A stretch of 64,000 nt of DNA. Origin: Haemophilus haemolyticus. Its GTDB lineage: Bacteria > Pseudomonadota > Gammaproteobacteria > Enterobacterales > Pasteurellaceae. Location: NCBI GenBank assembly GCA_018372995.1, contig JAHAHX010000001.1:37518-101517 (forward strand). The letters are read 5' to 3'. Below, one piece after another: positions 18,001 to 21,000 of the stretch (the stretch's first letter is position 1; each line of letters starts with the position of its first letter). The position numbers were made by a program.

Positions 18001-21000
18001 TTCCTTCTTTTGATACGTAATCACCTTGTTCAATTAGACCGTATGTTTTGTCTTCTGCTGTCACTACGTCATCAACAATAGTTACTTGACGACCAAAAGT
18101 TACTTGACCAAATTCTTTGTGGCCTAAACCAACATAAGCACGTTTCGTAGTTAAATTACCAAAACCATCGTTGTCTTTCTTTTTAAGACCTTTTTCATCA
18201 CCATCAAAACGTACTTCAGTACGTGCTAATGCGTAATAGCCATCACCTAAATCATGACGTGCTTTAATTTCAAAACGAGAACCATCATTTTTCAATCCTG
18301 AATGAGTATGACGTTTTAAGTTCCCTGATTTATTAATACCATCTTGGTTAGATTTTTCTAAGTTGATACGTAAAGAACCGTTTAATTCAACTTTAGTACC
18401 TTCATTATTATAGATTACTGTCGCGTTCGCCGCTGAAGCTGCAAATGCACCAATGATTAATGCTGCAAGTGTTTTTTTCATAATTTGTATTCCTTATGGT
18501 TGTTTTACTATCTATGATTGAACTTTTTCCTTATATGGCAGTCCAACCGCCTAAATAGACGTGCAAATCATTGCAAATTCCATTTTTTGTGTCAATCACT
18601 CCTATAGGCTTAATTTCCAAAAATCTGATCAGGATCACATTTTTCATCTATTTTTGTTTATTTTGTGTTCAGGTGAATGCTTTCGTAATCGTTTGCTTAA
18701 GTAAAGTGCTATAAAAATACATCGAAGCTGTGTATTTATATTGAGGTTTCAAAATATCCTTCATCTTCCAATATTGGGTTTTCAGCCCCTTTTTTGGCTA
18801 ATTCATCACAGATTTCATTTTCACGATGTCCCGCATGGCCTTTTACCCATTGCCAACTGATTTGATGATGTTGAATGGCTTCATTCAGCGCTTGCCATAA
18901 GTCTTGATTTTTTACAGGTTTGCCTTGACTTGATTTCCAATTATTTTTTTTCCAATTGAAAATCCATTTTGTGATCCCGTTTTTCATATATTGGCTATCA
19001 CTGTAAAGTGTGATTTGGCAGGGCTCTTTTAAAATATTCAGTGCCTCAATGACAGCACGAAGTTCCATTCGATTATTTGTAGTTTTGAAGTAGCCTTTGG
19101 AAATGGTTTTTTCATGTTGCTTATAGCGTAAGACAATGCCAATTCCTCCCGGGCCAGGATTGCCCAAGCAGGAACCGTCAGTAAAAATTTCAATCTGTTT
19201 TTGCATAACAAAAGGGTTGTTGTGTAAAATGGCCCTCATTTTAAAGGAAAGAAATAGGTTGAACAAATGGTTAATCCAAATCGCCAAATTGTACTGGATA
19301 CCGAGACAACGGGGATGAATCAATTAGGGGCGCATTATGAAGGACATTGTATTATTGAAATTGGTGCGGTAGAAATGATTAATCGTCGTTATACTGGCAA
19401 TAATTTTCACTTTTATATTAAGCCTGATCGTCCAGTTGATCCTGAAGCAATTAAAGTTCATGGCATTACAGATGAAATGTTGGCAGATAAACCCTCATTT
19501 AATGAGATTGCACAGCCATTTTTGGATTATATTAAAGGCGCAGAATTATTGATTCATAATGCGCCCTTTGATGTGGGGTTTATGGATTATGAGTTTCGTA
19601 AGTTGAATCTTAATGTGAAAACTGATGAAATTTGCTTAGTCACAGATACGCTACAGATGGCGCGTCAAATGTATCCAGGCAAGCGTAATAGCTTAGATGC
19701 ACTTTGTGACCGTTTGAATATTGATAATAGTAAACGTACGCTACACGGGGCGTTGCTAGATGCTGAAATTTTAGCTGATGTTTATTTGGCAATGACAGGC
19801 GGTCAAACCAGTTTGTTTGATGAAAATGATGTGAATGAATCACATTTTATTCGAACCATGTCAGGTAATAAAGATTCAGCTTTACGAAGTGCGGTGAATG
19901 TTTCGCATAATTTGAAAGTATTACAACCGAGTGAAGATGAATTATTGGCGCATTTAGAATTTATTAAAATGATTAATAAAAAAAGCGGTGATAATTGTTT
20001 ATGGGATAAACGTTTAGACAAAGAGGGTATTCACTAATCGTTTAGGATTTAATCATACAATAAAAAAATTATAAAAAAAGATTGACGAGATTTATGTTCG
20101 TCATTATGATACGCACCACTTAGCGGAGTGGTAGTTCAGCTGGTTAGAATACCTGCCTGTCACGCAGGGGGTCGCGGGTTCGAGTCCCGTCCATTCCGCC
20201 AATTTAAAATTAATATCTTATCTCGGAGTGGTAGTTCAGCTGGTTAGAATACCTGCCTGTCACGCAGGGGGTCGCGGGTTCGAGTCCCGTCCATTCCGCC
20301 AATTAAGATAAATAAAGATAGCACCTAAGGGTGCTTTTTTTGTATGTGAAATTTGCTTCATCCTTGACAAAAATAAAGTAAACTTTTAAGATTTGAAGAA
20401 CTAGGGATCTGTCACTCCCTAGTATGTCGTGTTATTAGTAAGCCGGTAAACTCACTAATAATAGTAGTACGACAAGGATAATGAGTTTAATCATTTTCTT
20501 ATCCTCTTCAAACGTTGCGAAAAAGCGCAACACTCGCTTTCAAGCTGAATCCTTGAAAGCGAGATTATTATAACGTATAAGTTATATATAAATAAACAGT
20601 GTTTAGAAAGCCATAGAATTGTATCCTGTGGCTTTTTCTTTTCCTTGTTGAAATCATTTTTTACCAATCCTTTAACTTCCGATATAATGGCCGTCATTTT
20701 TGACAAAATAAGAGATTTTTTATGGCAACTCCAGTTGTGGCCCTTGTTGGTCGCCCGAATGTGGGAAAATCCACATTATTTAATCGCCTTACTCGTACAA
20801 GAGATGCGTTAGTCGCTGATTTTCCTGGTCTAACTCGTGATAGAAAATACGGCCATGCTCATATTGCTGGCTATGAGTTTATTGTTATTGATACTGGCGG
20901 TATTGATGGAACAGAAGAGGGCGTAGAAGAAAAAATGGCGGAGCAATCTTTGCTTGCTATTGATGAAGCCGATATTGTTCTTTTCCTTGTGGATGCTAGA

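What the first reader, a model, noticed from the sequence alone, without database searches (positions are those of the whole stretch)
20364..20642. Promoter-to-terminator delimited, hairpin-dense non-coding locus between tRNA-Asp and der: candidate novel sRNA
A 375-bp gap sits between the tRNA-Asp terminator and der. A near-consensus sigma70 promoter (TTGACA-17-TAAGAT) is followed by about 240 nt containing four strong stem-loops and ending in an intrinsic terminator, all on the + strand. There is no convincing ORF. The only listed ORF is a 71-aa antisense one. A 30-codon frame, MSLIIFLSSSNVAKKRNTRFQAESLKARLL, has a poor SD spacing. It does not match SRP, RNase P, 6S or tmRNA features. It could be a trans-acting sRNA or a regulatory leader feeding into der.
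Basis: seen in the sequence. Interest (0 to 1): 0.6.

Follow-up and report, generated by a model that had tools for sequence, protein, structure and literature searches.

The report
Sib/Ibs type I toxin-antitoxin cassette
The hairpin-rich "non-coding" gap in front of der is a roughly 300-bp toxin-antitoxin cassette of the known Ibs/Sib family, with a 19-residue membrane-toxin gene on one strand and its antisense RNA antidote on the other, so the predicted RNA is probably real but is not a new kind of regulator.

Summary
The promoter, the stem-loops and the terminator are all present at the stated coordinates. The stretch folds far better than shuffled sequence (z = -7.5).

It is a 19-codon ORF at 20494..20435 (-), MIKLIILVVLLLLVSLPAY, with an AGAGGA ribosome-binding site.

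- **RNA match.** Rfam's SIB_RNA model matches 20364-20509 end to end (54.3 bits, E = 3.7e-9, 1.7 bits under the curated cut-off).
- **Peptide match.** Pfam's Ibs_toxin model matches the peptide end to end (17 bits, cut-off 27).
- **Reciprocal test.** A covariance model built from 27 Pasteurellaceae copies finds every Escherichia and Kluyvera Sib locus tested.
- **Conserved plan.** Thirty-five distinct relatives keep the same layout, with covarying stems (16 of 38 pairs; 0 of 500 shuffles reach this).
- **Coding constraint.** Of the 18 allele sequences at this chromosomal site (A2), 17 keep the ORF intact.
- **Recognition loop.** An 8-nt apical loop is hypervariable, like the SibC recognition loop.

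The cassette is a roughly 300-bp insertion. It is present at this site in H. haemolyticus and H. influenzae. It is absent from H. parainfluenzae and an Aggregatibacter sp. Related copies sit in prophages.

Ibs toxins in Haemophilus were predicted in 2010. This is therefore an unannotated member of a known family, possibly with a longer antitoxin RNA. It is neither a novel sRNA nor a der leader.

The parts
20350..20651 (.). Approximate limits of the ~300-bp cassette. It is an insertion relative to Aggregatibacter sp. HMT-949, locus L035 and H. parainfluenzae.
   Evidence: Alignment A1 and the empty sites. In those relatives the tRNA-Asp terminator is followed within 10-22 nt by the der -35 element.
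20364..20392 (+). Promoter of the Sib-like antitoxin RNA: -35 TTGACA (20364-20369), 17-nt spacer, -10 TAAGAT (20387-20392).
   Evidence: It aligns to positions 1-30 of Rfam SIB_RNA. Only 3 of 29 sites vary among the 18 alleles at this chromosomal site. The equivalent promoter is present in all groups.
20399..20642 (+). Inferred Sib-like antisense antitoxin RNA, long form of about 240 nt. The start is inferred at 20398-20400. A shorter form may end after the hairpin at 20533-20563, near 20571.
   Evidence: Rfam SIB_RNA hit at 20364-20509. Model R1 scores 163 bits on 20393-20532. Stems covary. The terminal hairpin has + strand-only G.U pairs. Both RNA ends are inferred, not measured.
20393..20401 (.). 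TTGAAGAAC, constant except one A-to-G change in L078. It is the start region of the + strand RNA. On the - strand it reads GUUCUUCAA, the tail after the toxin mRNA's 3' hairpin.
   Evidence: TTGAAGA and the final C are invariant and the remaining position nearly so in alignment A4. The tail is predicted to pair with the toxin 5' UTR (UUUGAAGAG) in groups A-D.
20400..20423 (-). Hairpin HP1: probable 3' terminator hairpin of the toxin mRNA. It also forms the 5' hairpin of the antisense RNA.
   Evidence: 4 of 8 pairs show changes on both sides. It folds better on the - strand in 18 of 21 distinct variants, by about 6 kcal/mol in groups D and E.
20435..20494 (-). ibs-like toxin ORF: MIKLIILVVLLLLVSLPAY plus TAA. 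A second in-frame TAA lies at 20434..20432.
   Evidence: Pfam Ibs_toxin matches positions 1-19 of 19 (E = 0.006, 17 bits). The C-terminal S-[LF]-P-A-Y-stop is shared with Escherichia and Kluyvera Ibs. 17 of 18 alleles are intact, with synonymous and conservative changes and one in-frame extra Leu codon.
20502..20507 (-). Ribosome-binding site AGAGGA of the toxin ORF, 7 nt before the ATG. On the + strand it is the anti-SD stretch of the antitoxin RNA.
   Evidence: Read directly from the sequence. Only 2 of 18 sites vary in 20495-20512. The SD/anti-SD hairpin AGGAUAA/UUAUCCU (20475-20505) is kept in 99.5% of cells, with one covarying pair.
20425..20474 (+). Long hairpin of the antisense RNA opposite the 3' half of the ORF. 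Its 8-nt apical loop (20443-20450) is hypervariable.
   Evidence: Fold. 6 of 7 outer-stem pairs show changes on both sides. All 8 loop positions vary among alleles at the same chromosomal site, and they are the only contiguous run of that kind. This is analogous to the SibC P5 loop, TRD1 (PMC2943612).
20514..20531 (+). Hairpin HP2 (GUUGCG-AAAAAG-CGCAAC). It occupies the position of the E. coli Sib P7 terminator but has no U-tract here.
   Evidence: 3 of 6 pairs show changes on both sides. R1 aligns it to the Kluyvera Sib terminator hairpin.
20533..20563 (.). Hairpin HP3 (CUCGCUUUCAAG-7 nt-CUUGAAAGCGAG). It is a possible weak terminator of a short Sib form. It is also the 5'-terminal hairpin of the toxin mRNA.
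   Evidence: Flagged as terminator-like. One G-C/A-U covarying pair, 18 versus 17 sequences. Its sequence constancy is partly an artefact, because it was the pattern used in the searches.
20567..20596 (-). Inferred toxin promoter: -10 TATAAT (20572..20567) and weak -35 TTTATT (20596..20591), with an 18-nt spacer in this allele. The start is inferred near 20560.
   Evidence: 0 of 10 sites vary in 20564-20573. TATAAT or TATACT lies at the same place in all groups, with TTGATT, TTGGCT, TTGCCT or TTGAAT 16-17 nt upstream (read). Not verified experimentally.
20569..20586 (+). Hairpin or palindrome HP4 (UAUAAC-6 nt-GUUAUA), inside the toxin promoter spacer.
   Evidence: A palindrome of different sequence sits at the same place in every group. 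G.U pairs number 6 on the + strand against 2 on the - strand.
20607..20642 (+). Intrinsic terminator of the + strand RNA: stem 20607-20616 with 20626-20635, then a T-tract running to 20642.
   Evidence: The stem interior varies among 22 distinct variants and always keeps standard pairs. There are 20 G.U cells, valid only on the + strand. A T-rich tail follows in all variants.

Best explanation
The locus is a type I toxin-antitoxin cassette of the Ibs/Sib family.

**Toxin side.** The - strand encodes a 19-residue hydrophobic Ibs-type peptide (20494..20435). Its mRNA is inferred to be about 165 nt. It would start from a weak promoter (TATAAT at 20572..20567), begin inside hairpin 20533-20563, and end at hairpin 20423..20400 followed by GUUCUUCAA.

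**Antitoxin side.** The + strand has a near-consensus promoter (20364-20392). It makes a fully complementary antisense RNA, the Sib homologue.

**Mechanism (inferred from E. coli SibC/ibsC).** The antisense RNA first contacts the toxin mRNA through the apical loop at 20443-20450 and through its anti-Shine-Dalgarno stretch. The duplex then blocks translation and marks the mRNA for degradation. The toxin is made only if the antitoxin RNA falls.

**Origin.** The cassette is a roughly 300-bp insertion between the tRNA-Asp terminator and the der promoter. It probably came from a prophage, where the same module sits next to a small phage regulator. Its own terminator (20607-20642) shields der from read-through.

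**Shown here:** homology of both partners, the antisense arrangement, a conserved ORF, conserved promoters and terminators, covarying stems, and the insertion status.

**Inferred only:** transcription, transcript ends, toxicity and repression.
For: 1. **RNA match.** Rfam SIB_RNA matches 20364-20509 (+) over the full model (1-147), at 54.3 bits and E = 3.7e-9.
2. **Independent peptide match.** Pfam Ibs_toxin aligns 1-19 of 19 to the antisense peptide, E = 0.006. An E. coli control scores 47 bits and other Pasteurellaceae or Moraxella peptides score 13-25 bits; two prophage variants did not match.
3. **Shared C-terminus.** A codon-aware search for the C-terminus found H. influenzae, Histophilus somni, Moraxella, Escherichia and Kluyvera loci. 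Each has an 18-19-aa (21-23 aa in three Moraxella MAGs) M...S[LF]PAY ORF preceded by a Shine-Dalgarno sequence. Rfam SIB hits lie antisense to the ORF in seven of the eight loci scanned (none in H. somni).
4. **Reciprocal detection.** Model R1, built only from Pasteurellaceae, finds all Escherichia and Kluyvera Sib loci at the Rfam coordinates (E = 2.5e-5 to 3e-3). It finds nothing in the control loci.
5. **Covariation.** On 27 distinct sequences, 96% of cells are paired and 16 of 38 pairs change on both sides. The covariation score is 0.239 against 0.099 for shuffles (0 of 500 reach it) and at most 0.067 for slid partners.
6. **Coding constraint.** 17 of 18 alleles at this site are intact. 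Changes are synonymous or L/I/V. One allele has an in-frame extra Leu codon. The double stop is kept.
7. **Recognition loop.** The 8-nt apical loop is variable at all 8 positions, while promoters, the Shine-Dalgarno region and the -10 element are nearly invariant. This mirrors TRD1 of SibC (PMC2943612).
8. **Strand of the terminator.** Terminator G.U pairs number 11 on the + strand and 0 on the - strand.
9. **Distribution.** The cassette is present at this site in H. influenzae at 92-95% identity. It is absent in Aggregatibacter sp. HMT-949, locus L035 and H. parainfluenzae.
10. **Literature.** Fozo et al. 2010 list Ibs toxins in H. influenzae 86-028NP and H. somnus 2336 (PMC2887945).
Against: - Both curated thresholds are missed: Rfam 54.3 against 56 bits, and Pfam 17 against 27 bits.
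- NCBIfam has no match.
- BLASTN finds no similarity to E. coli sib.
- There is only one copy in the window, whereas enterobacterial sib/ibs loci are often tandem.
- There are no expression data. A published H. influenzae sRNA screen does not list a transcript that can be assigned to this site (PMC4659474).
- The toxin promoter's -35 element is poor, and its spacer is 18 nt in this allele.
- One related allele (L048) is frameshifted, so the module can decay.
- Watson-Crick covariation cannot tell the two strands apart.
- The relatives were partly collected with hairpin 20533-20563 as bait. That inflates the apparent conservation of that hairpin.
Confidence: 0.88

Rival explanations
1. One reading: an independent, novel trans-acting sRNA, or a regulatory leader that feeds transcription into der.
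For: A strong promoter, a structured RNA and a terminator lie on the same strand as der. An extra trans-acting role for the RNA cannot be excluded.
Against: - The RNA is antisense over its full length to a conserved Ibs-type ORF, and it matches SIB_RNA.
- A conserved + strand terminator precedes der's own promoter.
- Relatives with 92-93% identical Der lack the whole cassette and keep the der promoter.
- Homologous cassettes sit in prophages with no der nearby.
Confidence: 0.04
2. A decaying prophage remnant: the sequence descends from an Ibs/Sib module, but at this chromosomal site it is no longer a working toxin-antitoxin pair. For example, the toxin promoter may be too weak, or the toxin may never be made.
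For: - The -35 element is weak and the spacer is 18 nt in this allele (read).
- The terminator stem is weakened by a G-to-A change at 20617 that is unique to this allele.
- One related allele is frameshifted.
- The left edge looks like a truncated phage regulator gene.
Against: - 17 of 18 alleles keep the ORF, the double stop, the Shine-Dalgarno sequence and both -10 boxes.
- The cassette is retained at the same site across H. haemolyticus and H. influenzae.
- Compensatory changes occur within this group, for example 20428 C/T with 20471 G/A.
Confidence: 0.08
3. Same toxin-antitoxin module, but with a short antitoxin of about 135-175 nt, as in E. coli. On this reading the palindrome at 20569-20586 is a DNA operator in the toxin promoter. 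The distal terminator is only a fail-safe insulator.
For: - E. coli SibC is 141 nt and ends just after the anti-SD stretch (PMC2943612).
- The hairpin at 20533-20563 followed by AUUAUUAU was flagged as terminator-like.
- The palindrome lies exactly in the promoter spacer. In prophages a regulator gene is adjacent.
Against: - The tail after 20563 is a poor U-tract, and hairpin HP2 has none.
- G.U pairs favour the + strand RNA in the palindrome (6 against 2) and in the terminator (11 against 0).
- The palindrome sequence differs in every group. It persists at this chromosomal site, where no regulator gene is adjacent.
Confidence: 0.3

Closest known systems
E. coli SibA-E / IbsA-E (Rfam RF00113, Pfam PF13956), especially SibC/ibsC
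   Same: - A 19-aa hydrophobic toxin ending in S-[FL]-P-A-Y.
- An antisense RNA with its own TTGACA promoter that covers the whole ORF and the Shine-Dalgarno sequence.
- A variable apical loop opposite the 3' end of the ORF (like TRD1) and an anti-SD stretch (like TRD2).
- A hairpin directly after the anti-SD stretch.
- Detection by covariance model in both directions.
   Different: - Scores fall just under both curated thresholds.
- There is no BLASTN-level similarity.
- The locus is single-copy, not tandem.
- The hairpin at the P7 position lacks a U-tract.
- It is followed by two more conserved hairpins and a separate terminator about 110 nt further on. The antisense RNA may therefore be about 240 nt and may cover the toxin promoter. 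In E. coli, by contrast, the asRNA is reported to be fully overlapped by the mRNA (PMC8594479).
Ibs homologues predicted in Haemophilus influenzae 86-028NP and Haemophilus somnus 2336 (Fozo et al. 2010, PMC2887945)
   Same: The same toxin family in the same bacterial family. H. influenzae carries this very cassette at tRNA-Asp/der and a second type in prophages.
   Different: That study predicted toxin ORFs only. Its supplementary lists are not held here, so I could not check whether this exact locus was listed. It did not describe the antitoxin RNA, its extended layout or the insertion status.
hok/sok and aapA1/IsoA1 toxin mRNAs (5'-3' fold-back that keeps the primary transcript inert)
   Same: Predicted folds of the inferred toxin mRNA pair the 3' tail GUUCUUCAA with UUUGAAGAG just upstream of the Shine-Dalgarno sequence. 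This appears in all four groups (A-D) for which the calculation completed. The Shine-Dalgarno sequence itself sits in a local hairpin.
   Different: This is a prediction only. The duplex is short (-6 to -7 kcal/mol; 1-5% of shuffled tails do as well). No informative covariation was found. Knowledge of the hok and aapA1 mechanism comes from memory and was not checked here.

Membership tests
Sib antitoxin RNA (Rfam RF00113) | Scores at or above the family's gathering threshold (56 bits) | tested here: not met
   54.3 bits over the full-length model, E = 3.7e-9 in a 3-kb search. It is not listed in the whole-window run at gathering thresholds. The miss is 1.7 bits.
Sib antitoxin RNA (Rfam RF00113) | Encoded antisense to an ibs ORF, covering all of it and its ribosome-binding site | tested here: met
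   The hit at 20364-20509 (+) spans the ORF 20494..20435 (-) and the Shine-Dalgarno sequence at 20502-20507.
Sib antitoxin RNA (Rfam RF00113) | Homology detectable in the reverse direction | tested here: met
   Model R1, built from 27 Pasteurellaceae sequences, hits all Escherichia and Kluyvera Sib loci at the Rfam coordinates (E = 2.5e-5 to 3e-3). It hits no control locus.
Sib antitoxin RNA (Rfam RF00113) | Target-recognition loop in a variable region opposite the ORF (TRD1), plus an anti-SD element (TRD2) | tested here: met
   The 8-nt apical loop at 20443-20450 varies at 8 of 8 positions, while the anti-SD region varies at 2 of 18. The definitions come from PMC2943612. Function as a recognition domain was not tested.
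Sib antitoxin RNA (Rfam RF00113) | About 140-nt RNA ending at a terminator directly after the anti-SD stretch | tested here: inconclusive
   The hairpin at that position (20514-20531) has no U-tract. Candidate ends lie near 20571 and 20640.
Sib antitoxin RNA (Rfam RF00113) | Represses the cognate toxin in vivo | not testable with these tools
   Needs co-expression assays.
Ibs toxin (Pfam PF13956) | Scores at or above the Pfam gathering threshold (27 bits) | tested here: not met
   17 bits, E = 0.006, aligned 1-19 of 19. An E. coli control scores 47 bits. Other Pasteurellaceae and Moraxella peptides score 13-25 bits.
Ibs toxin (Pfam PF13956) | An 18-19-residue hydrophobic peptide with a polar or aromatic C-terminus, its own Shine-Dalgarno sequence and a start codon | tested here: met
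   MIKLIILVVLLLLVSLPAY, with AGAGGA 7 nt upstream. The C-terminal S-L-P-A-Y is shared with Escherichia sp. (ISLPAY) and is close to the E. coli ISFPAY.
Ibs toxin (Pfam PF13956) | ORF maintained by selection | tested here: met
   17 of 18 alleles are intact, with synonymous and conservative changes, one in-frame indel and a double stop. The competing + strand frame is not conserved.
Ibs toxin (Pfam PF13956) | Toxic when overproduced | not testable with these tools
   Needs an expression experiment.

The most novel reading that the evidence does not exclude
The Pasteurellaceae and Moraxella branch of the Sib family may use a different layout from E. coli.

- The antitoxin RNA would be about 240 nt. 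It would read through the whole toxin transcription unit, including its promoter. This would add transcriptional interference to base-pairing.
- The toxin mRNA would be kept inert by a 5'-3' fold-back involving the almost invariant GUUCUUCAA tail.
- The 8-nt apical loop would evolve under diversifying selection. That would keep the chromosomal copy and incoming prophage copies in one cell from cross-regulating.
Probability: 0.3. Interest if true: 0.45.

Novelty: new member of a known kind. Interest (0 to 1): 0.3.

Why it matters
**Annotation.** The cassette falls just under both the Rfam and the Pfam cut-offs, and the ORF is too short for gene callers. The exact 32-aa and 20-aa products are absent from a collection of 15 billion proteins. 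It is therefore unannotated in Haemophilus genomes and would keep being flagged as a "novel sRNA".

**Biology.** It is a small membrane-toxin module fixed at one chromosomal site in the H. influenzae / H. haemolyticus group, with relatives in their prophages. The natural alleles differ almost only in the predicted recognition loop. They form a ready-made series for testing how antisense RNA pairs stay specific.

**Limits.** None of this changes what is known about how type I systems work.

Tried and rejected
**Searches that gave nothing**
- BLASTN of the locus against 5,426 E. coli genomes gave only 37-nt chance matches.
- NCBIfam has no Ibs match.
- The word-indexed protein search refuses queries under 40 aa.
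- The exact-sequence look-up of the ORF products found nothing.
- There is no second copy or repeat of the element in the window.
- The Fozo 2010 supplements are not held, and Fozo 2008 is not held.
- An H. somni Hfq-sRNA paper does not mention it.
- An H. influenzae dual RNA-seq paper lists no candidate assignable to this site.

**Readings that were rejected**
- The + strand 30-codon ORF is rejected because it is not conserved.
- The 71-aa antisense ORF (20491..20706) runs out of the cassette into the der promoter, which is shared with genomes that lack the cassette. I rejected it on that ground without a separate conservation test.
- The der-leader idea is rejected.

**Technical points**
- The six loci with an identical Der protein were too similar (99-100%) to inform on covariation.
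- L044 and L045 from the metagenome scan, and about half of the genome-scan loci, are chance pattern matches.
- The MAFFT alignment A3 misaligned the palindrome and the terminator. RNAalifold therefore missed them, and I analysed them per variant instead.
- A TGAAAT repeat lies at both edges of the insertion. It could be a target-site duplication, but it is not present as such in the empty sites.
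Full report
**1. What is in the sequence**

Two tRNA-Asp genes lie at 20125-20201 and 20225-20301. They are followed by a terminator at 20320-20343. The der gene begins at 20722.

In between, TTGACA-17-TAAGAT lies at 20364-20392 on the + strand. The 244 nt from 20399 to 20642 fold at -76.9 kcal/mol, against -44.3 +/- 4.3 for dinucleotide shuffles (z = -7.5). The reverse strand folds just as well (z = -8.7).

Two caveats apply. Promoter-like matches in this AT-rich region are no more frequent than chance (5 found, 3.8 expected). 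Folding energy also does not say which strand matters.

**2. Identification**

A permissive Rfam scan of 19000-22000 gave a full-length match of SIB_RNA (RF00113) to 20364-20509 (+). The score is 54.3 bits with E = 3.7e-9, 1.7 bits below the curated threshold. For that reason it is absent from the threshold-level scan of the whole window. That scan lists only HrrF, SRP RNA and the two tRNAs.

Sib RNAs are antitoxins encoded opposite 18-19-codon ibs toxin genes. On the - strand, the listed 32-aa GTG ORF (20533..20435) contains an internal ATG at 20494. It gives MIKLIILVVLLLLVSLPAY, with AGAGGA 7 nt upstream and two consecutive TAA codons.

Pfam Ibs_toxin aligns to this peptide end to end (1-19 of 19, E = 0.006, 17 bits, cut-off 27). 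These are two independent profile matches, one to RNA and one to protein. They sit in exactly the antisense arrangement that defines the family.

**3. Relatives**

*Search by toxin C-terminus.* A codon-aware pattern for the toxin C-terminus was scanned over one genome per species. It returned loci from H. influenzae, Histophilus somni, four Moraxella, Escherichia and Kluyvera. Each carries an 18-19-aa M...S[LF]PAY ORF (21-23 aa in three Moraxella MAGs) with a Shine-Dalgarno sequence. The other loci were chance matches.

Rfam SIB scores antisense to these ORFs were as follows:

| Organism | SIB_RNA score (bits) |
|---|---|
| Escherichia / Kluyvera | 138-150 |
| H. influenzae | 46 |
| Moraxella (two of four loci) | 31-33 |
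| H. somni | no hit |

*Shared layout.* The H. influenzae and H. somni loci share the window's whole layout, including the part downstream of the Rfam match.

*Search by hairpin.* A search for the hairpin corresponding to 20533-20563 in metagenomes and viral contigs gave 46 further true loci. In all there are 35 distinct module sequences, which fall into six groups.

**4. Reciprocal test and covariation**

A covariance model (R1) was built from 27 distinct Pasteurellaceae cores, running from TTGAAGAAC to hairpin HP2. It finds every Escherichia and Kluyvera Sib locus at the Rfam coordinates, with E = 2.5e-5 to 3e-3 in 205 kb. It also finds the Moraxella loci. It finds nothing in the control loci.

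On that alignment:
- 96% of cells form standard pairs, against 88% for shuffles and at most 58% for slid partners.
- 16 of 38 pairs change on both sides, against a shuffled mean of 8.9. None of 500 shuffles reaches 16.
- The covariation score is 0.239, against 0.099 for shuffles and at most 0.067 for slid partners.

**5. Coding evidence**

Eighteen distinct alleles at this same chromosomal site were compared.
- 17 keep an intact ORF of 19-20 codons.
- Changes are synonymous (GTC/GTT, GTA/GTC, CTA/TTA, AAA/AAG, AGT/AGC, CAG/CAA) or L/I/V exchanges.
- One allele has an in-frame extra Leu codon.
- One allele (L048) is frameshifted.

**6. The recognition loop**

In the predicted fold of the + strand RNA, the long hairpin 20425-20474 ends in an 8-nt apical loop at 20443-20450. 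Among the 18 alleles, all eight loop positions vary. By contrast the -10 boxes, the TTGAAGAAC motif, the Shine-Dalgarno region, HP2 and HP3 vary at 0-11% of sites.

From the counts (48 variable sites of 277), I calculated by hand the chance that a given 8-nt run is entirely variable. It is about 5e-7, or about 1e-4 after allowing for all possible positions. This ignores the relatedness of the sequences.

In E. coli SibC, the P5 loop (TRD1) lies opposite the ibs ORF. It is hypervariable among paralogues and sets cognate specificity (PMC2943612). The outer stem of the hairpin here shows compensatory changes within this group. Position 20428 C/T changes together with 20471 G/A, and 20431 G/C together with 20468 T/G.

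**7. The 3' half (20510-20642)**

This is where the locus differs from E. coli. In E. coli the Sib terminator (P7) follows the anti-SD stretch directly (PMC2943612). Here the order is:
- The hairpin at that position (HP2, 20514-20531) covaries but has no U-tract.
- HP3 (20533-20563) follows.
- Next comes AUUAUUAUAA. On the - strand this reads TATAAT, invariant at this site and present in all groups. A -35-like hexamer lies 16-18 nt upstream.
- A palindrome follows (20569-20586). Its sequence differs in each group but its position is constant.
- Last comes a stem-loop with a T-tract (20607-20642).

In 22 distinct terminator variants the stem interior changes freely yet always pairs. It contains G.U pairs valid only on the + strand: 11 against 0 by one count, and 20 cells by another. 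The palindrome shows the same bias more weakly (6 against 2).

HP1 (20400-20423) behaves in the opposite way. It folds better on the - strand in 18 of 21 variants. That fits a role as the 3' hairpin of the toxin mRNA.

My reading is as follows. The toxin mRNA starts near 20560, so most of HP3 becomes its 5' hairpin, and it ends after HP1. The + strand RNA runs at least to HP3 and probably on to the terminator at about 20640. All transcript ends are inferred.

**8. Predicted toxin mRNA fold**

In groups A-D, the minimum-energy fold of the inferred mRNA pairs the 3' tail GUUCUUCAA with UUUGAAGAG just 5' of the Shine-Dalgarno sequence. That tail is the complement of the almost invariant TTGAAGAAC. 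The fold also encloses the Shine-Dalgarno sequence in a local hairpin.

The duplex is weak, at -6 to -7.3 kcal/mol, and 1-5% of shuffled tails do as well. I found no informative covariation. I treat it as a lead only.

**9. Genomic status**

- **Organism.** The window's Der protein is named 'MULTISPECIES [Haemophilus]' and H. haemolyticus.
- **Fixed site.** All 18 window-type alleles lie between tRNA-Asp (1-3 copies) and der, wherever the contig reaches these flanks.
- **Present.** H. influenzae genomes carry the cassette at the same site, at 92-95% identity.
- **Absent.** Aggregatibacter sp. HMT-949, locus L035 and H. parainfluenzae have only 10-22 nt between the tRNA-Asp terminator and the der -35 element.
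- **Conclusion.** The whole promoter-to-terminator unit, about 20350-20651, is a single insertion.
- **Prophage copies.** The other five groups come largely from prophage-type contigs. In them the Sib -35 TTGACA overlaps the start codon of a divergent 59-aa phage regulator (phrog_3887, E = 2.5e-30). A phage SSB gene lies nearby.
- **Possible remnant.** The window's left edge (20344-20363) resembles the first ~20 nt of that regulator gene. This suggests a prophage remnant, but the evidence is weak.

**10. Comparison with the literature**

Fozo et al. 2010 predicted Ibs toxins in H. influenzae 86-028NP (1 copy) and H. somnus 2336 (7 copies) (PMC2887945). The toxin family in Haemophilus is therefore already known.

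I found no description of the antitoxin RNA in Pasteurellaceae in four searches made for this purpose. The T1TAdb paper describes Ibs/Sib as having the asRNA fully overlapped by the mRNA (PMC8594479). If the long form here is real, the relationship is the reverse.

**11. Verdict**

This is an unannotated member of the Ibs/Sib type I toxin-antitoxin family. It has a possibly variant antitoxin layout and an informative set of natural loop alleles. It is neither a new class of sRNA nor a der leader.

Noticed in passing
L013 5625-5822; L024 3682-3862; L025 2837-2995; L026 914-1127: Ibs/Sib-like modules occur in Moraxella cuniculi and three Moraxella MAGs, with peptides such as MIKLLLIIILLLISLPAY. 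My model R1 detects all four and Rfam SIB two of them (L013, L026). They share the extended 3' layout. In three of the four loci their neighbours match C4 antisense RNA, isrK or sRNA-Xcc1, which suggests mobile-element contexts. I did not check whether Moraxella has been reported for this family.
   Followed up: partly
L007 5572-5751 (+), and the equivalent sites in L008 and L065-L087: In prophage copies, the antitoxin's -35 TTGACA overlaps the ATG of a divergent 59-aa phage transcriptional regulator (phrog_3887). The two promoters must therefore share the same DNA. The window keeps only a ~20-nt remnant of this gene at 20344-20363.
   Followed up: partly
window 20348-20353 and 20649-20654: TGAAAT occurs at both edges of the ~300-bp insertion. 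This may be a target-site duplication or a microhomology, but the empty sites in relatives do not contain it as such.
   Followed up: partly
window 20125-20301, and loci L001-L006, L042-L063, L088-L093: The number of tandem tRNA-Asp copies upstream of the cassette varies from 1 to 3 among closely related strains.
   Followed up: no
window 22994-23089 (-) and 29027-29125 (+): HrrF, the Fur-regulated Haemophilus sRNA, scores 104 bits. The small SRP RNA scores 68 bits. Both are ordinary known RNAs and help place the window in Haemophilus.
   Followed up: no
L048 1422-1711: One metagenomic allele of the cassette has a 1-nt insertion. It frameshifts the toxin ORF (MIKLIILVVVFIISEPPRLLIR) while leaving the rest intact. 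This is a natural toxin-null allele.
   Followed up: no
L007 5791-6813 (-): A 340-aa prophage ORF next to the H. influenzae module consists largely of tandem SAATNTG[DNY][QWR]S-type repeats. I did not examine it.
   Followed up: no
window 20617: This allele alone has A where 17 of 18 relatives have G in the terminator stem. The change shortens the stem and enlarges the loop to 9 nt (-14.2 against -20.0 kcal/mol). Read-through towards der could therefore be somewhat higher in this strain.
   Followed up: no
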